From IMG/VR virus record IMGVR_UViG_638277085_000001, positions 163,399 to 227,398 of that record: a DNA stretch of 64,000 nt. One strand, given 5' to 3'. A model generated the notes under the pieces. The model did not search any database. It was not told where the DNA came from and saw only the letters and a program-made list of their open reading frames with translations. The stretch is from a virus (taxonomy: Duplodnaviria; Heunggongvirae; Uroviricota; Caudoviricetes; Straboviridae). Shown here piece after piece: positions 1 to 63,806 of the stretch. The position numbers and the translations under genes were made by a program. How positions within the stretch are numbered: position 1 is the first letter of the stretch; every line of letters starts with the position of its first letter.

Positions 1-897
1 CAGCTTTGCTAATTGCAACGTTACCAGTGAACGTATCGCCAGCCACGTTAGCAAAACGAGCATCAGATTCTGTTTCAGTGTAGTAACGACCATCATGCGT
101 GTGTGAATCGTTCGCTACAGTCGCTGTAACGGTCACAGTTGCGTTAGCCGACCCATCAATCGTCATAGACGCAGAACCGCTTACATCGCCCGTTAGAGTC
201 GTTGTGAGCGTGCGTGCAGTTGTCCACTTATCAGCATTTGGATGATAACCGTCGTGAAACACATTGTTATCTTTGTACTTGATCGCAGTTGTATTAACAA
301 CAAACCCACTTGCAGTCGCTGAACCGACTTGCAACGTACCATCAGTACGAACTAGAGACGAGCCGAAGTATACCCCAGTTGTAAATGCGGCTTGGTCATT
401 GATTCTCAACCATGAATCAAATCCGCGAAATGCAGTTTTCGCGTTGATGTCAATGTTCTCAATGCCGAAGTTTGCTGCCGTTGCATCAATACGAAATCGA
501 GTTGTCGCTGTATCATTTTCACGTAAACTAAAATTACCACCATCGTTGATCAGATACCAACGCTTTGTACCGTCATTATCTTGAAGCAACAGACGCGGAG
601 AACCACCTCGAATCTCAATTTCATTCGCCGTATTTGTCAGTTTACCCGTCATCGTATCGCCGATCTTTTGAACGTAGCCACCGCCCGCAATCGGGGCAAA
701 TCGAGCATCAGATTCAGCTTTTGTAAATGCAGAAGTCGTCCCACCGTTACCTAGTTCGCCTGGCAGTGGTGTGTCGTGTTCTGTGTAAATTTTGTAGCCT
801 TGGTAGCGGATAGTCTCGCCTTGCGGGTCAAAGCGAAGATTTCCTCCGTGCCAGACTATATTACCACCAATTGCGGTAGTTGATCTTAGTTCTGCCA
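1..897 (-). CDS. Tail fibre protein paralogue. Only the N-terminal part lies in the window (start codon at 897); the gene runs off the left edge.
   Basis: The reverse-strand reading frame opens with MAELRSTTAIGGNIVWHGGNLRFDPQGET, nearly identical to the N-terminus of the 970..4254 product. It contains the same YHPNADKWTTARTLT...GDVSGSASxDGS repeat unit. It is not in the ORF track because it is truncated by the window edge. Confidence 0.6.
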
Positions 898-943
898 TGT
901 TATTCTCTCATTGAGTACGTTTATCATGTATTTATGAAGATAC

Positions 944-970
944 AAAAAAAGCTCCCGAAGGAGCTTTTAT
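944..970 (-). terminator. Rho-independent terminator (hairpin aagctcccgaaggagctt flanked by A/T runs; possibly bidirectional)
   Basis: Perfect 7-bp GC-rich stem with a 4-nt loop, followed by a T-run on the minus strand immediately after the stop of the 970..4254 gene. Confidence 0.6.
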
Positions 971-3900
971 TAACTTAGTAGTGCTTCTAGTCTAGCGATT
1001 CGTTCTTCAAGAGCTTCGCGTTTGCGCTTCTCTTCTTTGATACCCTCGATCAATAGACCAACCATATTTCCGTATGCAACTGCATAGTGACCATCAGCAT
1101 CGCCACCGGATTCAACAACAGCTTCTGGTAGAACTTCAAGAACTTCTTGAGCAATTACACCAGTTTGTCGCGGACATTCAACGTCTGTACGATCATATGT
1201 GTAACCATTCAGACGGTCAATCTTCTCAAGCGGATTTGTGATTCGCTCAACGTTAGTCTTGACTCGCGCATCCGAGTATGCTGTAATATTACCAGCAGAT
1301 TGAATGCTTTGATAGTAGTAGAAACCACTTGTCGCATCAGTTGAGTTATGAATCCATGATGTATTACGAGCTCCGAAATGCCATGTCTTACCGTTATCAG
1401 AACGGAAAAGCCAGCTACCTTCGTTCGATGAGTTCTGCATGTATCGTGTAGTATCGCCACCCAATGCAATGACGTTCTTAACCATCAGGTTACCGCCAGT
1501 CGTCAAAGACATTGCCCCATCAGTCGCTGCGTCACCCTCATCACGCCACAAGAATCCACGATCCGTATCGTTGTTCATTGTGAACGTCATTGCGTAGTCA
1601 TTCAACCAACCAAAGGATTGTCCGCTTGCCATGCCGATTGTATATGAACCACTAGACCACACTCGAATCTTATCATAAGAAGAAACACCAGTTGAGATCA
1701 ATGTCCCATTGACTGTGAAGCTTCCATCAGAATGAGTATGATTGTGTGAATCATTCGCAACCGCAACAGATAATGTAACGTTTGCGCTACCGTCGATTGA
1801 AGCAGAACCACTTACATCGCCGTTCAGAGTCAGAGTACGAGCCGTAGTCCACTTATCTGCCAACGGGTGATAAGATGAGTTGTAGTTCGCACGCCATCCC
1901 GGTGAATAGCTAGACCCATTATCAATGTAGATGAATTCTTGTCTAGTTGTCGCACCAGAAGCAGTTGTCGGTGTAATAACTTTGATTGTGCAGTTTGTAG
2001 TTGAAGTACCATGAACTTCAATCACAGAACCCGCAGTCCCAAACACACCAAAACCAGTGTCTACCGTCACCTGAGCAGCATATGACCAACTACCACGACA
2101 TGTCCAATACCAAGTTGAGAACGCGCCTTGTGCAGACAGCAATGAAATAAATTCAGCAGTCGTTACTCGATTATTTGTCCCAAATGAAATTTGACCTGCA
2201 CCGTTAGTGCCTGTAACCTCTTGAGGAGACCATGATACGTTAGCTGTACCGTTTACAGACTTGCCAGTTTTCCCGATTGTCAACGTACGAGCAGTTGTCC
2301 ACTTCGTCGCTTGTGTAGCTGAAGTCGCAGATGTTGCAGTCGTAGCGTTACCACTCAATGCCCCGATGAATGTCGGTGCTGTGATATTCACAGTCGATGT
2401 AATTGAAGTACTCTTAACTGAAAATTGTTTATTGTCAGCTAGTATACCACCGACGCCAAGAACAACCTCGCCTGCCGTGTTTGAGTTGTGCAAATACACC
2501 GCAGTGCGGTTACCAATCAATCCAAATTTATCAACTTTAACCGTTTCAGATGCAGGAGCCGTATTGCCAGCAGAGTCAGTGATGATCAATGATGAACTCA
2601 TCGTATCACCAGTTTTCTGTACGTAGCCGCCGCCCGCAATAGGTGCGAATCTCGCGTCTGCTTCAGTCTCGGTGTAGTATCGACCATCGTGCGTATGTGA
2701 GTCATTAGCAACCACAACAGACAAGGTAACGTTTGAGCTACCGTCGATTGAAGCAGAACCACTTACATCGCCGTTCAGAGTCAATGTTCTTGCAGTTGTC
2801 CACTTATCAGCCAATGGGTGATATTCATCATCGAAGATCTTCATCCACGCTGAACTAACACCAGACTCTCGACGCTTCCACCATAGGCGATTACTATTCT
2901 GACCCATAGCAAGAGTCATTGCATAACCGTTACCGTTGTTGTGCTCAGTATGAACACCCCACATCCAACCAGTTTCTTCAGCAGGCTTACCCGTGATTGA
3001 GCTATTTACATCAATGAAACCGCTTCGTTGGTAATCATCAATGTCACCGGAAGATAGCTGCATCGAGCCGATTTTGCCGCCAGATGTTCCACCAAAACCG
3101 TAAACCACGTTACTTGACTGAGCTTGTGTAGTAGGTACATTCAAGTAACCAGTCATCGTATCGCCAGTCGCGTTTACGAAACGAGCATCAGATTCTGCTT
3201 CGGTGTAGTAACGACCATCGTGAGTATGAGAGTCGTCAGCAACTGTAACTGCGAGTGAAATATTCGAGCTACCATCAAACGAAACTGATCCACTAACATC
3301 ACCAGATAACGTCAACGTTCTTGCAGTTGTCCACTTATCAGCTTCTGGGTGGTAGTCGGTGTGGTACATATAAACCCAGTCTTCCCACACGTCTGCGTAT
3401 CTCGTACGAAGTGCAATTGTACCTGAGTTGCCGCTTATACCATATGGGTAAGCAACTTGAGTCGCGTTAGTAGTCGAACCATATGTCATTGTCTGAGCAT
3501 ACCAGTAACCAGTAAACCCAGAAGGTCGATTTAAACCTTGTGATAACTTGTTGTAAAAGCCACCTCGATAAAGAGTATCCCAGTCAACTGTGGTATCAAC
3601 ACCCGATAGAGTACGCCCCGTCGCGATATATTCAGGGTTACTTGCGCTCAGACCAACTTCAGCGTATGTTGTATGATTTGGAACAACTGTATTGATAGTG
3701 ACGTTTGAACTACCGTCAATTGAAACTGAACCAGTTACTTCGCCTGATAGAGTAAGCGTTCTTGCAGTCGTCCATTTATCGGCATTTGGGTGATAGTTGT
3801 CTGCAAAAATTCGCTGCGTTGTGTTTAGATAACCAATACCGTTGATAACAACGTTGTTGTTTGATCTAGAACCGTACATGACAACCGATTCAGAATTCGA

Positions 3901-4254
3901 TTCACGTCTGATAATCTGCCATTGATTGACATCGCCATCATAGTGATAACGAACCCCGTGATTTCCGTTGTCCTCAGTCAAGTATAGACTTGCATCGGTG
4001 TTTGCAGTACTGCTCAAGTGCAATTGCGCAGTCGATTTGGCGATTTGCAAATCGCCACTCATGACATCACCAGCACGTTTAACAACAGACTCGGTTAAAT
4101 CTGTATGAGGGTCTGGCTTGTCATTTTCTGTATAAAGTTTGTAGCCATTGTAAAGTACTGTTTCTCCTTGCGGATCGAAACGCAAATTACCGCCATGCCA
4201 AACTATGTTACCGCCAATCGCGGTTGTTGAACGTAATTCTGCCATTAGTTTCAT
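970..4254 (-). CDS. Large tail fibre / tailspike protein with an internal roughly 100-150-aa repeat unit and a C-terminal intramolecular chaperone (peptidase S74-like autoproteolytic) domain
   Basis: 1094 aa. The motif YHP(L/N/E)ADKWTTARTLTL(N/S)GDVSGS(A/V)S(I/F)DGSSNVTL occurs four times. The C-terminus (SDARVKTNVERITNPLEKIDRLNGYTYDRTDVECPRQTGVIAQEVLEVLPEAV...coiled coil EEKRKREALEERIARLEALLS) matches the auto-cleaving intramolecular-chaperone domain of tail fibres and endosialidases. Confidence 0.7.
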   Translation of the reverse strand: MKLMAELRSTTAIGGNIVWHGGNLRFDPQGETVLYNGYKLYTENDKPDPHTDLTESVVKRAGDVMSGDLQIAKSTAQLHLSSTANTDASLYLTEDNGNHGVRYHYDGDVNQWQIIRRESNSESVVMYGSRSNNNVVINGIGYLNTTQRIFADNYHPNADKWTTARTLTLSGEVTGSVSIDGSSNVTINTVVPNHTTYAEVGLSASNPEYIATGRTLSGVDTTVDWDTLYRGGFYNKLSQGLNRPSGFTGYWYAQTMTYGSTTNATQVAYPYGISGNSGTIALRTRYADVWEDWVYMYHTDYHPEADKWTTARTLTLSGDVSGSVSFDGSSNISLAVTVADDSHTHDGRYYTEAESDARFVNATGDTMTGYLNVPTTQAQSSNVVYGFGGTSGGKIGSMQLSSGDIDDYQRSGFIDVNSSITGKPAEETGWMWGVHTEHNNGNGYAMTLAMGQNSNRLWWKRRESGVSSAWMKIFDDEYHPLADKWTTARTLTLNGDVSGSASIDGSSNVTLSVVVANDSHTHDGRYYTETEADARFAPIAGGGYVQKTGDTMSSSLIITDSAGNTAPASETVKVDKFGLIGNRTAVYLHNSNTAGEVVLGVGGILADNKQFSVKSTSITSTVNITAPTFIGALSGNATTATSATSATQATKWTTARTLTIGKTGKSVNGTANVSWSPQEVTGTNGAGQISFGTNNRVTTAEFISLLSAQGAFSTWYWTCRGSWSYAAQVTVDTGFGVFGTAGSVIEVHGTSTTNCTIKVITPTTASGATTRQEFIYIDNGSSYSPGWRANYNSSYHPLADKWTTARTLTLNGDVSGSASIDGSANVTLSVAVANDSHNHTHSDGSFTVNGTLISTGVSSYDKIRVWSSGSYTIGMASGQSFGWLNDYAMTFTMNNDTDRGFLWRDEGDAATDGAMSLTTGGNLMVKNVIALGGDTTRYMQNSSNEGSWLFRSDNGKTWHFGARNTSWIHNSTDATSGFYYYQSIQSAGNITAYSDARVKTNVERITNPLEKIDRLNGYTYDRTDVECPRQTGVIAQEVLEVLPEAVVESGGDADGHYAVAYGNMVGLLIEGIKEEKRKREALEERIARLEALLS

Positions 4255-4297
4255 TCCATTTATTGAAATTTTTCATATGACAGTATTTATTATGCCG

Positions 4298-4323
4298 TAA
4301 AAAAGGGCGCTATTTGCGCCCTT
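4298..4323 (-). terminator. Rho-independent terminator after the minus-strand gene 4310..4840
   Basis: Hairpin aagggcgctatttgcgccctt preceded on the plus strand by aaaaaa, which gives a T-run after the hairpin on the minus strand. Confidence 0.55.
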
Positions 4324-7059: not shown

Positions 7060-7426
7060 CAATATATTCCTTAATCGGCTTAGAAAAGTGACGAATACAA
7101 GAACTGTCAAGTCGTTTACGACCATCACCATCTATATCAGGTAGTGTGTATTCGTCATTAAACGGCTGACCGCTTTCTTTCGCAATCTCATAGGCATCGG
7201 CTCGATTGAAGTATTCACCACAATAGTTGATAAACCCCTGACCGCGATCCCCGAGTTCGTTTCGATGTTCATATGTACAACCTAGTTCTTTCAATAACTT
7301 AAAGACTGATTGCATGTTTCGACCGAAATGGCAGCTATCAGCAACAACAATGTCGCGCACTTCACCGTTCGGTAGTGTCACTCGAATTGCATTAGCAGCA
7401 GACGATATTACATTGACGTGCGACAT
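7052..7426 (-). CDS. Hypothetical protein
   Basis: 124-aa ORF. Confidence 0.4.
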   Translation of the reverse strand: MSHVNVISSAANAIRVTLPNGEVRDIVVADSCHFGRNMQSVFKLLKELGCTYEHRNELGDRGQGFINYCGEYFNRADAYEIAKESGQPFNDEYTLPDIDGDGRKRLDSSCIRHFSKPIKEYIDG

Positions 7427-7764
7427 GTATCGTACCTCATAAAAATTGAACCAACGCGCTTATACTGACCAGAGTGAGAAAGCAACAGAGCCATTTTACT
7501 ATGACCAACGGGATTGCTTGTCACTAGAACAACAGTGCGCGGAAAATTACGATGATCAATCGCATGAGAGAGAATATCATACCCCTCTCTACCAACATCA
7601 TCACCTAGGTCATTGTCCATGAATAGAGTGATGTCAGTTAGATTTGTGTGCTTGACGAAATTCATACCGTCTTCGAATGTACGAAGAACTAGCTTTTCAT
7701 CGTCGCGTACGTAATCTGACGTGAACTTATTAATGTCACGCAGATCATCAATCATAACGTACAT
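7408..7764 (-). CDS. Small protein with CheY-like receiver-domain signature residues (possible stand-alone receiver-like protein)
   Basis: 118 aa. It has MIDDLRD (acidic pair), LFMDNDLGDD (candidate phospho-acceptor Asp), LVTSNP (Thr/Ser) and a downstream HSK (Lys), in the order and spacing typical of receiver domains. Confidence 0.3.
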   Translation of the reverse strand: MYVMIDDLRDINKFTSDYVRDDEKLVLRTFEDGMNFVKHTNLTDITLFMDNDLGDDVGREGYDILSHAIDHRNFPRTVVLVTSNPVGHSKMALLLSHSGQYKRVGSIFMRYDTCRTSM

Positions 7765-42866: not shown

Positions 42867-43552
42867 TGACAACTAAAGCAAGACATGCGTCACGAGTGTG
42901 GAGCAATGACTCGCGCATGAAGATTTTCGATCAAACAGCAATTGACGACTCGGGTTTATTCCCGGGTGGTCGCTTCAATTTCCGCGGTGCGGTATTAGGC
43001 GATTCAACAATTGACGAAATTCAAGAAGGCGCGTGGGACCCGAACGTTCAAGCTGCGATCATGCAGCTTGCAATGGCAGCAATTTTGCCAGTCGGTACTA
43101 TTATCTCGTCAACAGACGCAACGAACCCGTTTAACACGAACCAGTTCAACGAAACAATTACATTCACTGGGACTTCGGCAGTTGATAACATCAGCTTATA
43201 TGGCGTTTCAGTGCAGTTGACTGTAGGCGATTCGGATAATGACATTGCAGAAAAAGTTTTCACGGCTCTGCACGCATCGAATCTGTTTGACACTGTTCCG
43301 ACAGATCACGTCGCACCGTCAAACACGTTTCTATTGAAGCACCGCAGTTCTAGACCGCACAATCCTGCGTACTCAACGACGTTTGAAGACATTTTAGACC
43401 CAGAAGGTAGTCCAACTGGGATTCAAGCTAAAAGCGTCGTCACGGGTTCGTCAGACGGTCAGAAGAGCTTAGGTTACGGGGAATGGGAATTGTATCACAC
43501 TGATACAACAACATTCACTGATACTGTATATTACTACAGAAGGATTGCATAA
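42866..43552 (+). CDS. 11: Baseplate wedge / short-tail-fibre connector gp11 (ATG overlaps the gp10 stop: taATG)
   Basis: 228 aa (T4 is 219 aa). Synteny. Confidence 0.5.
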   Translation: MTTKARHASRVWSNDSRMKIFDQTAIDDSGLFPGGRFNFRGAVLGDSTIDEIQEGAWDPNVQAAIMQLAMAAILPVGTIISSTDATNPFNTNQFNETITFTGTSAVDNISLYGVSVQLTVGDSDNDIAEKVFTALHASNLFDTVPTDHVAPSNTFLLKHRSSRPHNPAYSTTFEDILDPEGSPTGIQAKSVVTGSSDGQKSLGYGEWELYHTDTTTFTDTVYYYRRIA

Positions 43553-45090
43553 TGTCAGGAACAAACATATTCACGCACGCGAGTGACGAGGCAAAATATG
43601 TTTACCTGCAACCGTTCACTTCTCCCGGTTCAGCTTTTGAAGCGGGAGGAGATGTTCAGAGTATTTTGGAGCAAATTGATCCAAGCGCATTGCTACCACT
43701 GCCGCCGTTACCTTATGCAACTCCGACTGAGGACGGTGCAGTTGAGTACTCGACTCAAGCAGAAGCTAATGCACTTGATGATTTATTGACTGTTCTTACA
43801 CCCGAAACATTAGACGGTGTTGATCAGTTTGTATCACCAGCAACCGATACTCAGCTAGGTAACTTACTTGAATTACGTTCAAGTGATTTGACTCGAACAT
43901 ATGCATCGTCAGATGCTAGTCGTTTGCTTTCATATCGTCGTCTTGAAGAAATGATGACGACTAGAAATGCACTTGCCGATGACACAACTAATGAATCTCA
44001 GGGGTTTGCTCAGTTTGCAACTCTAGCTGAATCATTAGCATACAACCCATCACGCATAATCTCGCCTATGCGAACGTGGAACTTGATTAAAAAAGAAATT
44101 CCAAACCCGTGGGCGCAAGCAACCGAGACATCAACCGGTGTCGTTAGAACAGTAGCACCGAGTGATTCATTGAAATCAGATGCTTCTATCGCGATTAGTG
44201 TCAAAGGGTTGAATCATGTATCAGCAACAACTTCAAAGCGAGGTGCGTTTAAGTTAACACAAAACAACTATGATCGCAATGCAAGTGATGCAAACGAATA
44301 TGCAATAACTCCCGGTACAATTGATAATTTATTGGCTACGAGTGATAAGGTCGGATTCTTTCAACTCCCTGCTACGTTCACAAACGACTCAACTCAAGCA
44401 ACTAGTGCGGCATTAGGCTACGAACTTGCAAATAAACTGGGTCCAGATGGTGGTACGATTACAGGTACGCTTCAATGTGACAACATTTACAGTAATATTG
44501 TTACGAGACAAAAGCAATACAGCTATGGCGGCTCATATTACGTTAATGTAAGAGAAACGCGAGAAGTATTCCCGAACAATCAACTTGACGCTAAAATCGG
44601 CTTAGCAGGTCGACCAGTCGGGAGCATTTTCCATTGTACCGAAAATGTAGACCCGAATGTTGTATTTGGGGGCGTGTGGTATAGAATCAGAGCAGGTCAA
44701 ACAATGATTGGTCAAGGCACGGGCGACGATGGCGTGCGTCGTCGTTACTTCTCGGCAGGGACATATCGCGATGACGACCGAGTTACATTGTACGAGCGCC
44801 ATTTGCCTAGTCATAGTCACAAAAGCTGGGGTGAAACATACTCGGGTTCTAAATCTGCATGTGTTAAGTACGGTACATATCGAAACCCGTATGGCGTGAC
44901 GTATTACTGTAAAGAATACAGCTACGTTGATTATTGGAGATTTGGTAAATCTGGCTCTCGCAATAATATAGGCATGGGTTCTACTGACCGAGATAATTAC
45001 ATGTATTACACATCACCGGTAGGTGGCGGTCAAGCTCATGAAAACATGATGCCATTCTATCCCGTTTATATTTGGAGACGAGTTAAATGA
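43552..45090 (+). CDS. 12: Short tail fibre gp12
   Basis: 512 aa (T4 is 527 aa). C-terminus DNYMYYTSPVGGGQAHENMMPFYPVYIWRRVK. Synteny. Confidence 0.6.
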   Translation: MSGTNIFTHASDEAKYVYLQPFTSPGSAFEAGGDVQSILEQIDPSALLPLPPLPYATPTEDGAVEYSTQAEANALDDLLTVLTPETLDGVDQFVSPATDTQLGNLLELRSSDLTRTYASSDASRLLSYRRLEEMMTTRNALADDTTNESQGFAQFATLAESLAYNPSRIISPMRTWNLIKKEIPNPWAQATETSTGVVRTVAPSDSLKSDASIAISVKGLNHVSATTSKRGAFKLTQNNYDRNASDANEYAITPGTIDNLLATSDKVGFFQLPATFTNDSTQATSAALGYELANKLGPDGGTITGTLQCDNIYSNIVTRQKQYSYGGSYYVNVRETREVFPNNQLDAKIGLAGRPVGSIFHCTENVDPNVVFGGVWYRIRAGQTMIGQGTGDDGVRRRYFSAGTYRDDDRVTLYERHLPSHSHKSWGETYSGSKSACVKYGTYRNPYGVTYYCKEYSYVDYWRFGKSGSRNNIGMGSTDRDNYMYYTSPVGGGQAHENMMPFYPVYIWRRVK

Positions 45091-46508
45091 GTAAAGGAAC
45101 TCAAATTTTCAATCACGTGATTGATGATGCGGGTACGGTTACAGTTGAAGTCGCTGGTACTGCCTTTGACGGGCAGACTGGCGGCAACGATGATCTTCAG
45201 ACGTGCCTTGAATTGATTCAAGATCACGCTGTTCAGCCGTTACCTGATTATCCAGTCGCGTCAACGACTGTGGCTGGTATTACGAAATTAAGTGATGAAG
45301 CCGCTGTAGTTGACCCGCTAAACACAGATAGCGCGGTTACGCCAAGTTCGCTTGATTATTGGATGCAAAATCACGCAACTGCAACTGAATTGCAGTATGG
45401 TTTCGTAAAGCTGATAACCGAAAGCACAATCGACACAGTAGCACCGTCAGATCCCGTAGAAGCTGCACAAAAGCACGCATTCACGTTAAAAACGCTGAAC
45501 TATGCTCTTAATACTAGATTTTACGCGACTGAATCTGACCCAGGTGCTGTGCGTCTAGCGACGAACGCGCAAGCAACGACAACAGGCACACTTTCAACGA
45601 CTGTAGCAATGACGCCGCAGCGAGTTAAAGAAATGCTTGACGTGTGGGCAAATACAACTGCATCAGACGCATCCGAAACTACAAAAGGGTTGATTCGACT
45701 AGCAAACGGGACTGAAGTCAACAGTACATTAGCGACTGAAGATAACTTGGCAATTTCGCCATATCGTTTTAACTTTAGAACAGCAACTACGACTCGTAAG
45801 GCAGGGTTTTATCTACCCGACGCTACAGTTGCCAACGCTCGTGCGTCGAACGAACATGCAGTTACAGTGGGCACATTGAATCTATTCAGTGCAAATAGTT
45901 CTCGTGTGGGTGTTGCTAAAATAGCAAATAACCTGACGACGAATGATCCGTTACAAGCTCTAAGCGCAGCAATGGGTTATAAGTTGAACAACGAGAAGAT
46001 TGGCGATGCAGGTGGTACAGTCACGGGTACCCTGAAGATCAACAATGTTCAGTCAGTTGGCGGAACTCAGTTGATGACTAATGGTCTAATTGAATCGCAA
46101 GCAATGCTTAATATGTATCCAGTCGGTTCAGTTTACATGTCGTTAGTATCAACATCACCGGCTACACTTTTCGGTGGTACATGGGCTAGATTGGCACAAG
46201 GTCGTGTTCTTGTTTCAGAGGGTTCATATGGCGGGAGAACTTTTGCAGTTCGCCAAACTGGCGGCGAGTATGAAGTTCAGCTAACTGAAGCAACAATCCC
46301 TGCTCATAAACACGCTGGCTGGGGTGAACATTACGATGGTAATGGTATAGGATTTGGTGTTGCGAAGCAATACGGTCGTAACAACCCAGGTTCTCGTAGA
46401 ACAGACAGTGACAACTATCTATACTACACATCACCAGTCGGTGGTAACCAAGCGCACAACAACGTACAGCCATACTATACTGTTTACATGTGGGAAAGAA
46501 CTGCATAA
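45087..46508 (+). CDS. Second short-tail-fibre paralogue (gp12-like) with a divergent receptor-binding region
   Basis: 473 aa. The C-terminal module (LFGGTWARLAQGRVLV...HKHAGWGEHYDG...DNYLYYTSPVGGNQAHNNVQPYYTVYMWERTA) parallels that of the preceding gp12. The N-terminal part is divergent. Confidence 0.55.
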   Translation: MSKGTQIFNHVIDDAGTVTVEVAGTAFDGQTGGNDDLQTCLELIQDHAVQPLPDYPVASTTVAGITKLSDEAAVVDPLNTDSAVTPSSLDYWMQNHATATELQYGFVKLITESTIDTVAPSDPVEAAQKHAFTLKTLNYALNTRFYATESDPGAVRLATNAQATTTGTLSTTVAMTPQRVKEMLDVWANTTASDASETTKGLIRLANGTEVNSTLATEDNLAISPYRFNFRTATTTRKAGFYLPDATVANARASNEHAVTVGTLNLFSANSSRVGVAKIANNLTTNDPLQALSAAMGYKLNNEKIGDAGGTVTGTLKINNVQSVGGTQLMTNGLIESQAMLNMYPVGSVYMSLVSTSPATLFGGTWARLAQGRVLVSEGSYGGRTFAVRQTGGEYEVQLTEATIPAHKHAGWGEHYDGNGIGFGVAKQYGRNNPGSRRTDSDNYLYYTSPVGGNQAHNNVQPYYTVYMWERTA

Positions 46509-62708: not shown

Positions 62709-63806
62709 TTATAGACTATGCAAATAATTGTAGGCGATACTGACTCGCTTATCTTCTAGAGCTTCGCCGTATGCAGGTCCCGGCTCAACGTCAACTTTGA
62801 TATTTCGAGTTAGTTCAATTAACTCAGTGAGCATTTTACGCTTCACTTCATCTTTTACTTGCGATAATGCAACTTCGAACGGTAGACCTTCTTTGTATGC
62901 ACCTAGTTTACGTAAAACAATGACAATCGTTTCATCAAATGCATTAGCAACGTTTAGACTCATCAAGATCTCAGATGCTTTATCAAATTGCTTAGTCGCA
63001 CCGAATTTTCGAGTGTAACGATTACGATGGTCGAATGATGCCCATTTAGCAATTAGCTGCACGTCTTCACACTTAAAAGGCATACGATTGTAGAACTTCA
63101 ATTCAAGCAATTCGCGTGCGCTAGGTACTGCACAGAACCCAATTTGACCTAAAAATGCGAAGTACATGTGCGCGTCTTTCTCAGACAGTGCTTTTTGAGT
63201 CTCTAGCCACACACGTTCTTTAGGTAGATTCTCAAGCATACCGTCATTGATCATCTTCTTGCATAGCTCAATCGTTTCTTCTGCGACTTTGAATCCCATG
63301 CTGTAGTAACGAGCATAGAAACGAGCAACACGCAGAACACGCAATGGGTCTTCAGCAAATGCTTCAGTCGTGTGACGAAGAATCTTATTTTTCAAGTCGT
63401 CTAGACCCCCGTACGGGTCGATGATGTCATCAGTCGAGCCCCACATGAATAGACTATTCGGTGTCATGTCTGGTATAGCCATTGAGTTGATAGTCAGATC
63501 TCGACGAGATAAGTCGTCTTCTAACGTAACACCGTCAGTTGTGAAAGTGAAGTCAGTAGTTTTACCGCCAGTGCTACGCTCTACACGAGCAAGCGCGACT
63601 TCATTACCGTCTTTATCAAGCCAAACAGGGAAATCAGCGCCGATTGGTTCGCCGTACATAGCCATCATTTGCTCATGCGTACAACCGGTTACTACGTAAT
63701 CAATGTCTTTCGGGAATCTAGACCAACCCTCGACATGTTTCAGAATGGAGTCGCGTACTGCGCCACCGACAATGTATTTTTTCATCAAGTTAAGATTCGC
63801 TTTCAT
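62709..63806 (-). CDS. cca: tRNA nucleotidyltransferase (CCA-adding enzyme) / class II polymerase-beta-like nucleotidyltransferase
   Basis: 365 aa. The N-terminal motif YIVGGAVRDSIL....DIDYVV is the GG-x-VRD / D-x-D head-domain signature. Confidence 0.7.
   Translation of the reverse strand: MKANLNLMKKYIVGGAVRDSILKHVEGWSRFPKDIDYVVTGCTHEQMMAMYGEPIGADFPVWLDKDGNEVALARVERSTGGKTTDFTFTTDGVTLEDDLSRRDLTINSMAIPDMTPNSLFMWGSTDDIIDPYGGLDDLKNKILRHTTEAFAEDPLRVLRVARFYARYYSMGFKVAEETIELCKKMINDGMLENLPKERVWLETQKALSEKDAHMYFAFLGQIGFCAVPSARELLELKFYNRMPFKCEDVQLIAKWASFDHRNRYTRKFGATKQFDKASEILMSLNVANAFDETIVIVLRKLGAYKEGLPFEVALSQVKDEVKRKMLTELIELTRNIKVDVEPGPAYGEALEDKRVSIAYNYLHSL

What the first reader, a model, noticed from the sequence alone, without database searches (positions are those of the whole stretch)
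1..4254. Tandem paralogous tail-fibre genes, one with an auto-cleaving intramolecular chaperone domain
Two adjacent minus-strand genes share an almost identical N-terminal 45 aa (baseplate-attachment module) and the same internal repeat (YHP.ADKWTTARTLT...DGSSN, four copies in the complete gene). The complete one ends in a peptidase-S74-type intramolecular chaperone domain. Such a domain is unusual for T4-like long tail fibres, which normally use gp57A/gp38 chaperones. Two alternative fibres on one attachment module suggest host-range switching or dual receptor use.
Basis: partly seen in the sequence, partly recalled or inferred. Interest (0 to 1): 0.5.

Follow-up and report, generated by a model that had tools for sequence, protein, structure and literature searches.

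The report
Two alternative KVP40 distal tail fibres
The window starts inside the known tail-fibre locus of Vibrio phage KVP40, where two intact neighbouring genes each encode a complete outer half of the long tail fibre with a self-cleaving folding domain; this arrangement is already described in T4-related phages, and the only new point is that the reference genome record does not annotate the second gene.

Summary
The window is Vibrio phage KVP40 (100% identity). Gene A (window 970-4254, minus strand) and gene B (starts at 898 and runs off the window) share a 46-aa N-terminus (39/46 identical, the first 29 all identical). They also share the YHPxADKWTTARTLT repeat, with four canonical copies plus one degenerate copy in A. 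Both genes end in a Peptidase_S74 intramolecular chaperone with the Ser/Lys pair (A Ser994/Lys999, B Ser976/Lys981). In the full genome B is an intact 1085-aa ORF, not a pseudogene.

The interpretation needs three corrections.
- The shared module is the N-terminus of T4 gp36. It joins the distal half-fibre to the gp35 knee, not to the baseplate. Each gene is therefore a gp36+gp37 fusion.
- A self-cleaving chaperone on gp37 is the rule in T-even-like phages. T4 is the exception.
- Tandem g37 duplications are already published or annotated for RB43, Aeh1, nt-1, phi-pp2 and pA3B5. In the relative 6E35.1a, both proteins that carry the module were found in virions.

The most likely mechanism is two alternative distal half-fibres with unrelated tips competing for one knee, so virions carry a mixture. 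I found no switch. Novelty: already known. One useful by-product is that gene B has no CDS feature in either KVP40 record.

The parts
1..898 (-). Gene B, 5' part (aa 1-299 of 1085). The rest lies upstream of the window at NC_005083.2 161039-163398. It is a gp36+gp37-fusion distal long-tail-fibre subunit and has no CDS feature in either KVP40 record.
   Evidence: [quoted passage not shown]
761..898 (-). Gene B N-terminal module (aa 1-46), homologous to the N-terminus of T4 gp36. Inferred docking end for the gp35 knee.
   Evidence: alignment A2; tblastn; 39/46 identical to gene A
146..247 (-). Gene B, first YHPNADKWTTARTLT... repeat unit (aa 218-251).
928..935 (-). ATAAATAC box 30 nt upstream of the gene B start. 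It matches 7 of 8 positions of the T4 late-promoter core TATAAATA.
   Evidence: 7 matches in the window against 2.5 expected; the ATAAATA core is invariant in 7 phages (A4); gp23 has the same box 38 nt before its start
947..968 (-). Intrinsic-terminator hairpin (AAAAGCTCC-TTCG-GGAGCTTTT followed by a T run) between gene A and gene B.
970..4254 (-). Gene A (KVP40.0298.1), a gp36+gp37-fusion distal long-tail-fibre subunit. The likely true start is 4245.
973..1275 (-). Gene A C-terminal intramolecular chaperone (aa 994-1094). Ser994 is encoded at 1273-1275 and Lys999 at 1258-1260. Cleavage is predicted between Tyr993 and Ser994, releasing an 11.3-kDa fragment.
   Evidence: Pfam; A1; PDB profile hits; AF2 pLDDT above 90 in this part; Foldseek to 7DC3 and 3GW6; masses
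1276..1752 (-). Gene A distal tip (aa 835-993). It becomes the new C-terminal end after cleavage and is the inferred receptor-binding region. It is unrelated to the tip of gene B.
   Evidence: no A-B BLAST alignment covers this stretch; distribution among phages; AF2 confidence is low here
1867..2187 (-). Gene A internal globular domain (aa 690-796), about 50% identical to aa 213-321 of the phage Mu G(-) fibre S' (8JU3).
   Evidence: E 5e-23; the identity of 8JU3 is taken from PMC11821841
1771..1872 (-). Gene A repeat copy 4 (aa 795-828).
2221..2322 (-). Gene A degenerate repeat copy (aa 645-678, ...TKWTTARTLTIGKTGKSVNG...).
2722..2823 (-). Gene A repeat copy 3 (aa 478-511).
3253..3354 (-). 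Gene A repeat copy 2 (aa 301-334).
3694..3795 (-). Gene A repeat copy 1 (aa 154-187). It closes the first full PF03903 (Phage_T4_gp36) domain, aa 61-190.
4108..4245 (-). Gene A N-terminal gp36-type module (aa 4-49 in the annotated numbering).
4283..4290 (-). ATAAATAC late-promoter-like box 38 nt upstream of the MAELRS start of gene A.
4299..4321 (-). Terminator-like hairpin (GGGCGC-AAATA-GCGCCC followed by T6) ending the upstream RNaseH-like gene.

Best explanation
KVP40 has no separate gene 36. Instead it carries two late genes in tandem, and each encodes a whole distal half of the long tail fibre as a gp36+gp37 fusion.

Each protein has four parts in order: (i) a gp36-type N-terminal module that docks on the gp35 knee protein (KVP40.0383); (ii) a shaft of gp36-like domains punctuated by the KWTTARTLT...DGSSN beta-helix motif and DSHxH motifs; (iii) a tip of its own; (iv) a C-terminal S74 intramolecular chaperone.

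The chaperone drives trimer folding and then cuts itself off at Ser994 (A) or Ser976 (B), with Lys at +5. This leaves mature fibres of about 106 and 104 kDa. No gp38-type adhesin is detectable, so the exposed tips themselves are the likely receptor binders.

Both genes are transcribed independently: each is preceded by a terminator and an ATAAATAC box. Both N-termini are held identical by selection. The two half-fibres therefore most likely compete for the same knee, and a virion's six fibres are a mixture of two specificities rather than the product of a switch.

Shown here: gene identity, domain architecture, catalytic residues, intactness, purifying selection and conserved regulatory motifs. 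Inferred: autocleavage, co-assembly on one virion and receptor binding by the tips.
For: Identity of the locus and fibre family
- The window is 100% identical to KVP40.
- PF03903 scores 205.8 bits on A and 46.6 bits on B. Both fall in phrog_11011.

The N-terminal module is gp36-type
- It aligns with T4 gp36 (A2).
- In single-copy phages the module lies in gene 36.
- KVP40 annotates genes 34 and 35 but no gene 36.

The C-terminal chaperone
- Pfam PF13884 matches both proteins, and S, D and K are invariant.
- A profile of the domain hits S16 gp37 6F45 (E 7e-17), MyRF 7DC3, 8JOV and GA-1 3GUD.
- The AF2 model of this part has pLDDT above 90. It matches 7DC3 (TM 0.71-0.73) and endoNF 3GW6 (probability 0.99).

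Both genes are functional
- Both are intact in KVP40, phi-pp2, VH1_2019 and nt-1.
- dN/dS for A is 0.04-0.09. For B it is 0.34-0.44, inflated by one swapped segment.
- In the N-module the first 29 aa are identical, yet 17 of those 29 codons differ synonymously and synonymous sites are saturated. The identity is therefore maintained by selection on the protein, not by recent duplication or gene conversion.

Independent expression
- The hairpin, T run, invariant ATAAATA box and Shine-Dalgarno sequence upstream of gene B are conserved in 7 phages.
- The same box sits upstream of gene A and of gp23.

Different tips and no adhesin
- The two tips do not align with each other.
- Both tips are at least 94.6% conserved in the same 14 KVP40-species genomes and are replaced in other species.
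- A gp38-type adhesin is found in 963 phage records, but Vibrio is not among the genera with six or more records. The downstream KVP40.0297 is unrelated to either kind of gp38.

Virion presence in a relative
- In 6E35.1a both proteins that carry the N-module were detected in purified particles. The gene B orthologue VP6E351A_0365 gave 259/365 spectra and VP6E351A_0368 gave 49/77 (ISME J 2025 supplement; orthology).
Against: - There are no KVP40 virion proteomics, expression data or cleavage data here.
- Spectral counts from a relative do not show that single particles carry both fibres.
- The tip models have low confidence, so receptor binding by the tips is only an inference.
- An adhesin too diverged for tblastn could exist elsewhere in the genome.
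- The late-promoter assignment rests on a 7-of-8 match to the T4 consensus plus conservation, not on mapped transcripts.
- Neither KVP40 tip is conserved in 6E35.1a, although both phages use OmpK. Which fibre, if either, binds OmpK is therefore open.
Confidence: 0.7

Rival explanations
1. Only one of the two genes is used to build fibres. The other is a silent or weakly expressed cassette that supplies modules by recombination when the host range has to change.
For: Trojet et al. 2011 leave this possibility open for RB43 and Aeh1 (PMC3157838). Gene B is not even annotated in KVP40. The locus is mosaic, with modules shuffled between genomes.
Against: Both ORFs are intact in every genome examined. 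Gene A has dN/dS 0.04-0.09, and gene B differs from its phi-pp2 orthologue at very few residues outside one swapped segment. Each gene has its own conserved terminator, ATAAATA box and ribosome-binding site. Both module-bearing proteins are present in 6E35.1a virions. A silent cassette would not keep 29 of 29 N-terminal residues while its synonymous sites saturate.
Confidence: 0.1
2. Both half-fibres sit on every long tail fibre at once, making it branched. The unusually large KVP40 gp35 knee (894 aa against 372 aa in T4) would offer two docking sites.
For: gp35 is enlarged in the dual-fibre phages that were checked: 894 aa in KVP40 and 528 aa in Citrobacter phage Miller, against 372 aa in T4. 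There is a faint similarity between the two halves of KVP40 gp35 (E 0.013).
Against: Only one stretch of KVP40 gp35 aligns with T4 gp35 (E 2e-7), and the internal similarity is not significant. Trojet et al. state that fibre dimensions fit a single gp37 trimer in the phages they discuss (RB43, Aeh1). I found no structural data for KVP40 fibres.
Confidence: 0.1
3. The two proteins are joined in series. A would act as a long gp36 and B as gp37, which is how the homologous pair is labelled in Citrobacter phage Miller.
For: The Miller annotation calls the first gene 'T4 gp36-like' and the second 'T4 gp37-like'.
Against: Both proteins carry the same gp36-type N-terminus and both end in a removable chaperone. 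The shared N-module matches only two places in the KVP40 record (the starts of genes A and B), and in single-copy T4-like phages it lies in gene 36, not gene 37. Fibre length fits a single trimer.
Confidence: 0.05

Closest known systems
RB43 gp36-37.1 and gp36-37.2 (Pseudotevenvirus; GenBank AY266307, 2003), with the same pair in Citrobacter phage Miller and in Cronobacter phages
   Same: Two adjacent same-strand genes. Each has the gp36-type N-terminus and each ends in Peptidase_S74. The duplication, and the fact that its function is unknown, are stated in Trojet et al. 2011.
   Different: The RB43 pair sits directly after genes 34 and 35 and is followed by a gp38 adhesin and the holin t. In KVP40 the pair lies about 70 kb from genes 34/35, and no gp38-like gene is detectable.
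Pairs already annotated in close relatives: nt-1 ('gp36+37 fusion long tail fiber distal subunit', twice), phi-pp2 pp2_296/297, and vB_VpM-pA3B5 ORF115/116
   Same: These are orthologous loci with the same architecture. The pA3B5 paper reports both of its distal subunit genes (3258 and 3276 bp) as 99.8% identical to their KVP40 homologues (PMC13373721).
   Different: None of substance. The KVP40 records simply lack the CDS for the 3258-bp gene.
T2/S16-type gp37 with an autocleaving chaperone, capped by the gp38 adhesin (PDB 6F45)
   Same: The same chaperone family and the same S-D-x-R-x-K cleavage motif. It is the best PDB match (E 7e-17). Cleavage exposes the functional tip.
   Different: S16 has a separate gp36 and a single gp37, and a gp38 adhesin docks on the cleaved tip. 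KVP40 fuses 36 and 37, has two copies, and shows no gp38.
T4 gp36 + gp37
   Same: The N-terminal gp36 module, PF03903 domains and HxH-type motifs are shared, as is synteny with asiA downstream.
   Different: In T4, genes 36 and 37 are separate and gene 38 is annotated as tail-fibre assembly. According to Trojet et al., T4 gp37 folds with the gp38 and gp57 chaperones and its own C-terminal extension is the adhesin. No T4 gp37 structure appeared among the PDB matches of the KVP40 chaperone profile; I did not scan T4 gp37 itself.
Four-gene form of the same locus in 6E35.1a and ValKK3
   Same: The position is the same (RNA-binding protein, RNaseH-like gene, fibres, phrog_15749 gene). There are exactly two proteins with the gp36 N-module, and the last gene is the orthologue of KVP40 gene B.
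   Different: The gene A slot is replaced by three genes in 6E35.1a: a 546-aa module-bearing protein without S74, a 1094-aa laminin-G/lectin-like virion protein, and a 526-aa S74 fibre without the gp36 module. ValKK3 has the same four-gene layout by annotation and gene size.
Endosialidase endoNF (K1F) and GA-1 neck-appendage C-terminal intramolecular chaperone domains
   Same: The fold and the catalytic Ser/Lys are shared.
   Different: These are tailspikes or appendages of unrelated phages. Only the chaperone is shared.
Phage Mu S/S' alternative tail fibres
   Same: It works alike in that one phage encodes two fibre ends for different hosts. A aa 690-796 is also about 50% identical to a domain of Mu S'.
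   Different: Mu expresses one fibre at a time through G-segment inversion. KVP40 shows no invertible segment, and both genes are in the same orientation, each with its own promoter-like box.

Membership tests
Peptidase S74 / C-terminal intramolecular chaperone domain | Sequence match to PF13884 above the gathering score, at the extreme C-terminus of a fibre or spike protein | tested here: met
   A aa 994-1046 scores 58.2 bits and B aa 976-1032 scores 64.5 bits, against a cutoff of 22. Profile positions 1-57 of 58 are covered.
Peptidase S74 / C-terminal intramolecular chaperone domain | Catalytic Ser at the cleavage site with Lys five residues downstream | tested here: met
   A has Y^S994-D-A-R-V-K999 and B has Y^S976-D-R-R-L-K981. 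S, D and K are invariant in 8 fibres. The motif aligns with S16 S^SDRRIKK and with the first residue of the released GA-1 chaperone, SDERHK.
Peptidase S74 / C-terminal intramolecular chaperone domain | Fold of solved chaperone domains | tested here: met
   The AF2 model of A aa 835-1094 has pLDDT above 90 in the chaperone part. Foldseek finds MyRF ICA 7DC3 (E 6e-6, TM 0.71-0.73) and endoNF chaperone 3GW6 (E 8e-3, probability 0.99).
Peptidase S74 / C-terminal intramolecular chaperone domain | Autoproteolytic release after trimerisation | not testable with these tools
   This needs expression of the wild type and a Ser-to-Ala variant, or virion mass spectrometry.
T4-type distal half-fibre (gp36/gp37) | gp36-type N-terminal module | tested here: met
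   Alignment with T4 gp36 has 13 invariant columns. tblastn places the module in gene 36 of single-copy phages.
T4-type distal half-fibre (gp36/gp37) | PF03903 Phage_T4_gp36 domains | tested here: met
   A scores 205.8 bits over 3 stretches and B scores 46.6 bits over 2 stretches.
T4-type distal half-fibre (gp36/gp37) | Partner proteins gp34 and gp35 encoded in the same genome | tested here: met
   KVP40.0384 (gene 34) and KVP40.0383 (gene 35) are annotated. gp35 aligns weakly with T4 gp35 (E 2e-7).
T4-type distal half-fibre (gp36/gp37) | Presence in the virion as part of the long tail fibre | not testable with these tools
   Published only for the relative 6E35.1a.
T4-proper gp37 (gp38/gp57A-assisted, no chaperone domain) | An adjacent T4-type gp38 assembly chaperone | tested here: not met
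   KVP40.0297 shows no alignment to T4 gp38.
T4-proper gp37 (gp38/gp57A-assisted, no chaperone domain) | C-terminus without an S74 domain | tested here: not met
   Both KVP40 proteins carry S74.
T2/S16-type fibre (chaperone removed, then capped by gp38 adhesin) | A gp38 adhesin gene downstream or elsewhere in the genome | tested here: not met
   KVP40.0297 against RB43 gp38 gives E 12. tblastn with RB43 gp38 finds 963 records, with Vibrio not among the genera that have six or more. The test is limited to tblastn sensitivity.
Tandem gp36-37 fusion duplication (RB43 / nt-1 type) | Two adjacent same-strand genes, each with a gp36 N-module and an S74 C-terminus | tested here: met
   All 54 Vibrio records show two places for the module.

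The most novel reading that the evidence does not exclude
Every KVP40 particle is a mosaic whose six long fibres are drawn at random from two distal half-fibres with different receptors. This bet-hedging, not a single promiscuous adhesin, would underlie the phage's unusually broad host range. The unannotated gene B would then encode the still-unidentified OmpK-binding fibre. Its orthologue is the most abundant distal fibre protein in 6E35.1a virions.
Probability: 0.25. Interest if true: 0.5.

Novelty: already known. Interest (0 to 1): 0.2.

Why it matters
KVP40 is the reference broad-host-range vibriophage. Its receptor OmpK has been known since 1995, but the phage protein that binds OmpK has not been identified: a 2025 study found no candidate.

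What tandem g37 duplications do in T4-related phages was called 'unclear' in 2011, and I found no experimental answer in the papers searched.

This finding adds little new biology. It does show that one of the two distal fibre genes is missing from both public KVP40 records. Any proteomic, transcriptomic or structure-prediction screen built on the deposited KVP40 annotation would therefore miss a prime receptor-binding candidate.

The analysis also argues that both copies are functional and bind the same partner. The N-terminal protein sequence is kept identical while synonymous sites are saturated, and the expression signals are conserved.

Tried and rejected
- The KVP40 genome paper (PMC180978) is not held, so I could not see what its authors wrote about gene 37.
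- Several fetched loci (L003, L005, L007-L010) never appeared in the Python sandbox. Comparisons with them were done with the alignment and BLAST tools instead.
- KVP40.0297, the gene after B, was tested as a holin t, a T4 gp38 chaperone or a T2-type gp38 adhesin. No similarity was found. Pfam gave nothing, and it falls in phrog_15749 of unknown function. Its role stays open.
- An internal duplication in gp35 was tested as support for a branched fibre. The best self-match has E 0.013, which is inconclusive. Miller gp35 against KVP40 gp35 gave no significant match.
- The AF2 model of the gene A tip has pLDDT mostly below 60, so nothing could be said about the tip fold or the type of receptor. 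Apart from the chaperone hits, the Foldseek matches were noise.
- The apparent 960-bp 'insertion' in phi-pp2 seen in the megablast table is an artefact of joining repeat matches. The genes are collinear: A is 1091 aa in both phages, and B is 1085 aa in KVP40 against 1109 aa in phi-pp2.
- Recent gene conversion as the cause of the N-terminal identity is rejected. The DNA is only 77% identical, and 17 of the 29 identical-residue codons differ synonymously.
- A switching mechanism by inversion is rejected for lack of inverted repeats in gene A or a nearby invertase.

Full report
**What the window is.** Megablast of window 1-4300 gives a 100% match over the full length to Vibrio phage KVP40 (NC_005083.2 / AY283928.2, positions 163399-167698). 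It also gives 95-99.5% matches to a dozen KVP40-species phages. KVP40 is a Schizotequatrovirus in the Straboviridae, so 'T4-like' is correct.

**The two genes.**
- Gene A is window 970-4254 on the minus strand, 1094 aa. [quoted passage not shown]
- Gene B starts at window 898 on the minus strand and leaves the window after 299 codons.
- In the full genome, gene B is an uninterrupted 1085-aa ORF (L001 6040-9297).
- Neither the RefSeq nor the GenBank record has any feature there. There is a 3.4-kb annotation gap between KVP40.0297 and KVP40.0298.1, and tblastn reports 'none' under the match.

**The shared features.**
- Counting from the MAELRS start, the two N-termini are identical at 39 of 46 positions, and the first 29 are all identical.
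- phi-pp2, VH1_2019 and gene B all start at MAELRS, as does the annotated start in 6E35.1a, and T4 gp36 starts at the aligned MADLKV. The annotated MKLMAELRS start of gene A is therefore probably three codons too long.
- The repeat YHPxADKWTTARTLTLxGxVxGSxSxDGSxN occurs four times in A (aa 154, 301, 478, 795), with a degenerate fifth copy at aa 645. B has three copies plus a variant.
- The same motif matches the C-terminal region (aa 100-132 of 137) of the phage L Dec protein (6E3C). It is a common fibre motif, not something peculiar to this phage.

**The C-terminal domain.**
- Pfam PF13884 (Peptidase_S74, 'chaperone of endosialidase') matches A at aa 994-1046 (58.2 bits, E 1e-15) and B at aa 976-1032 (64.5 bits). 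Both cover almost the whole model.
- In an alignment of eight such fibre C-termini (KVP40 A and B, 6E35.1a, RB43, nt-1), Ser, Asp and the Lys five residues later are invariant.
- A profile of that alignment finds four solved relatives: S16 gp37 (6F45, E 7e-17), the MyRF ICA domain (7DC3), another phage fibre (8JOV), and the released GA-1 chaperone, whose first residue is the aligned Ser (3GUD).
- An AF2 model of A aa 835-1094 is confident in the chaperone part (pLDDT above 90). It matches 7DC3 (TM 0.71-0.73) and the endoNF chaperone 3GW6 (probability 0.99).
- Predicted cleavage is Tyr993^Ser994 in A and Tyr975^Ser976 in B. This would give mature chains of about 106 and 104 kDa and fragments of 11.3 and 12.8 kDa.

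**What the N-terminal module really is.**
- A tblastn search with the 46 residues finds 1,427 phage records, nearly all T4-type phages of enterobacteria, Acinetobacter, Aeromonas and Vibrio.
- Direct alignment with T4 gp36 shows the shared pattern M-A-x-L...GG...W...N...P-x-G...Y...E...P.
- KVP40 annotates gene 34 (1256 aa) and gene 35 (894 aa) about 70 kb away and has no separate gene 36.
- Each of the two genes is therefore a gp36+gp37 fusion that encodes the whole distal half-fibre. The shared end is the one that meets the gp35 knee, not the baseplate.
- Phage nt-1 already labels its two genes 'gp36+37 fusion long tail fiber distal subunit'.

**How the identity is maintained.**
- Across the 29 identical residues the DNA is only 77% identical.
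- 17 of those 29 codons differ synonymously, and synonymous sites are saturated.
- The identity is therefore held by selection on the protein and does not come from a recent duplication or gene conversion.
- The two N-module types are each conserved between KVP40 and the distant 6E35.1a. The A type is 90% identical over 68 aa, and the B type is about 70% identical over 300 aa. The duplication thus predates those species.
- This is what one expects if both proteins must fit the same partner.

**Both genes look functional.**
- Both are intact in KVP40, phi-pp2, VH1_2019 and nt-1.
- Against phi-pp2 and VH1_2019, dN/dS is 0.087 and 0.043 for A. For B it is 0.44 and 0.34. The B values are inflated by one replaced segment at about aa 620-700; outside that segment B is nearly identical.
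- Between A and B lie a strong hairpin terminator and an ATAAATAC box 30 nt before the B start. The same box lies 38 nt before the MAELRS start of A and 38 nt before the gp23 start.
- ATAAATAC occurs 7 times in the window against 2.5 expected.
- In an alignment of the region upstream of gene B from seven phages, several elements are conserved or invariant: the hairpin, the T run, the ATAAATA core, the GAGA ribosome-binding site and the start. The seven are KVP40, phi-pp2, VH1_2019, nt-1, 6E35.1a, ValKK3 and 1.081.O.
- Calling these late promoters is an inference from the T4 consensus TATAAATA.

**The tips differ.**
- The stretch between the last repeat and the chaperone does not align between A and B.
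- Tip A (aa 835-992) is at least 94.9% conserved in 14 KVP40-species genomes and 81-83% in the V. splendidus phages VS1 and VS2. It gave no match in ValKK3, nt-1 or 6E35.1a.
- Tip B (aa 690-975) is at least 94.6% conserved in the same 14 genomes and 59% in QD01.
- Gene A also carries an internal domain (aa 690-796) about 50% identical to part of the Mu G(-) fibre S' (8JU3, E 5e-23).
- No gp38-type adhesin is detectable. The gene after B (KVP40.0297, with an N-terminal hydrophobic, probably membrane-spanning stretch) matches neither kind of gp38 nor the T4 holin.
- A tblastn search with RB43 gp38 finds 963 records, with Vibrio not among the genera that have six or more.
- The cleaved tips themselves are therefore the likely receptor binders. 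This step is inferred.

**What is already known.**
- Chaperone domain on gp37:
  - S16 gp37 cleaves at DLNVS^SDRRIKK (PMC7917993).
- Tandem g37 duplications:
  - Trojet et al. 2011 note that RB43 and Aeh1 'have duplications of g37' and that the function is unclear. They suggest a mixture of the two subunits or use of only one of them (PMC3157838).
  - The RB43 record of 2003 names gp36-37.1 and gp36-37.2, and both carry S74.
  - About 119 of the 1,427 records have two copies of the module. These include all 54 Vibrio records and the Pseudotevenvirus group.
- KVP40 and its close relatives:
  - A 2026 paper reports the 3258-bp and 3276-bp distal subunit genes of phage pA3B5 as 99.8% identical to their KVP40 homologues (PMC13373721).
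  - The preprint of the 2025 Schizotequatrovirus study describes the endoNF-like chaperone on two neighbouring fibre proteins, VP6E351A_0365 and VP6E351A_0366.
  - The supplement of the published version reports all four fibre-locus proteins in purified virions. The gene B orthologue gave the highest counts.

**Variation of the locus.** In 6E35.1a and ValKK3 the slot of gene A holds three genes:
- a roughly 540-aa protein with the A-type gp36 module and no chaperone;
- a roughly 1,100-aa laminin-G/lectin-like virion protein;
- a roughly 530-aa chaperone-bearing fibre without the gp36 module.

The gene B orthologue stays last (domain content checked for 6E35.1a). Every genome examined keeps exactly two proteins with the knee-docking module.

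**Mechanism and rivals.**
- The best-supported reading is two alternative distal half-fibres made in parallel. They would compete for the single gp35 knee, so particles carry a mixture of two tips.
- The 'silent cassette' reading is disfavoured by the selection and expression signals.
- The 'in series' reading is disfavoured because both proteins have the same gp36 end and both end in a removable chaperone.
- The 'branched fibre' reading has only the enlarged gp35 in its favour, and the test for an internal duplication was inconclusive.
- None of these readings can be settled without virion data for KVP40.

**Verdict.** The arrangement is an already described feature of non-T-even T4 relatives, and the 'unusual' and 'baseplate' parts of the interpretation are wrong. 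The practical residue is an annotation gap in the reference genome and a sharper argument that both copies are in use.

Noticed in passing
window 1-898 and NC_005083.2 161039-164296 (L001 6040-9297): Gene B, an intact 1085-aa distal tail-fibre gene, has no CDS feature in either KVP40 record (NC_005083.2, AY283928.2). The neighbouring locus tag KVP40.0298.1 hints at a past re-annotation.
   Followed up: yes
window 62709-63806 (-): A second intact ORF is missing from the RefSeq annotation (locus tag KVP40.0364 is absent). It is 365 aa with PolyA_pol head and RNA-binding domains, so it looks like a CCA-adding tRNA nucleotidyltransferase. It sits just after gp23.
   Followed up: partly
window 43552-45090 and 45087-46508 (+): The short tail fibre gene is also duplicated in tandem (12-1 and 12-2). 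Both copies have a Gp10_C-type C-terminal domain, so fibre duplication in this phage is not confined to the long fibre.
   Followed up: partly
window 1867-2187 (-), gene A aa 690-796: An internal globular domain is about 50% identical to aa 213-321 of the phage Mu G(-) tail fibre S' (PDB 8JU3, E 5e-23). It could be a lateral binding domain. Its function is unknown.
   Followed up: partly
L001 about 7240-7650 (gene B aa about 551-687); L003 20637-21065: The '...ARYIDFHTTNSTADYDIRLDC...' domain is internal in KVP40 gene B. In 6E35.1a p0267 it sits directly before the chaperone, so there it is the tip. The distal part of the same stretch (about aa 620-700) is the only part of gene B swapped between KVP40 and phi-pp2/VH1_2019. 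This is a lead for a receptor-contact module.
   Followed up: partly
window 4245-4254 (-): The annotated start of gene A (MKLMAELRS) is probably three codons too far upstream. MAELRS matches gene B, phi-pp2, VH1_2019 and the aligned start of T4 gp36.
   Followed up: partly
L001 5414-5989 (-), KVP40.0297: A conserved 191-aa protein with an N-terminal hydrophobic (probably membrane-spanning) stretch follows the fibre genes in every relative examined. It occupies the position that holin t has in T4 but has no detectable similarity to it or to gp38 (phrog_15749, unknown function). Its orthologue gave only 2 spectra in 6E35.1a virions.
   Followed up: partly
L003 13645-16929 (6E35.1a p0265); L009 11551-15009 (ValKK3): In the four-gene form of the locus, a roughly 1,100-aa virion protein sits between the fibre genes; the 6E35.1a copy has Laminin_G_3/ConA-like lectin domains. 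It is a candidate glycan-binding accessory of the fibre.
   Followed up: no
proteins P0002-P0075; Cellulophaga and Maribacter phage hits: The module made of tip A plus the chaperone occurs as short stand-alone ORFs (158-440 aa) in many marine metagenome contigs. It also occurs weakly in Bacteroidota phages, which suggests that this tip is a widely exchanged cassette.
   Followed up: no
L007 43333-46017 (-), KVP40 gp35: The knee protein is 894 aa, against 372 aa in T4 and 528 aa in Citrobacter phage Miller. Only about 130 aa align with T4 gp35, and no Pfam family matches. The extra mass is unexplained.
   Followed up: partly
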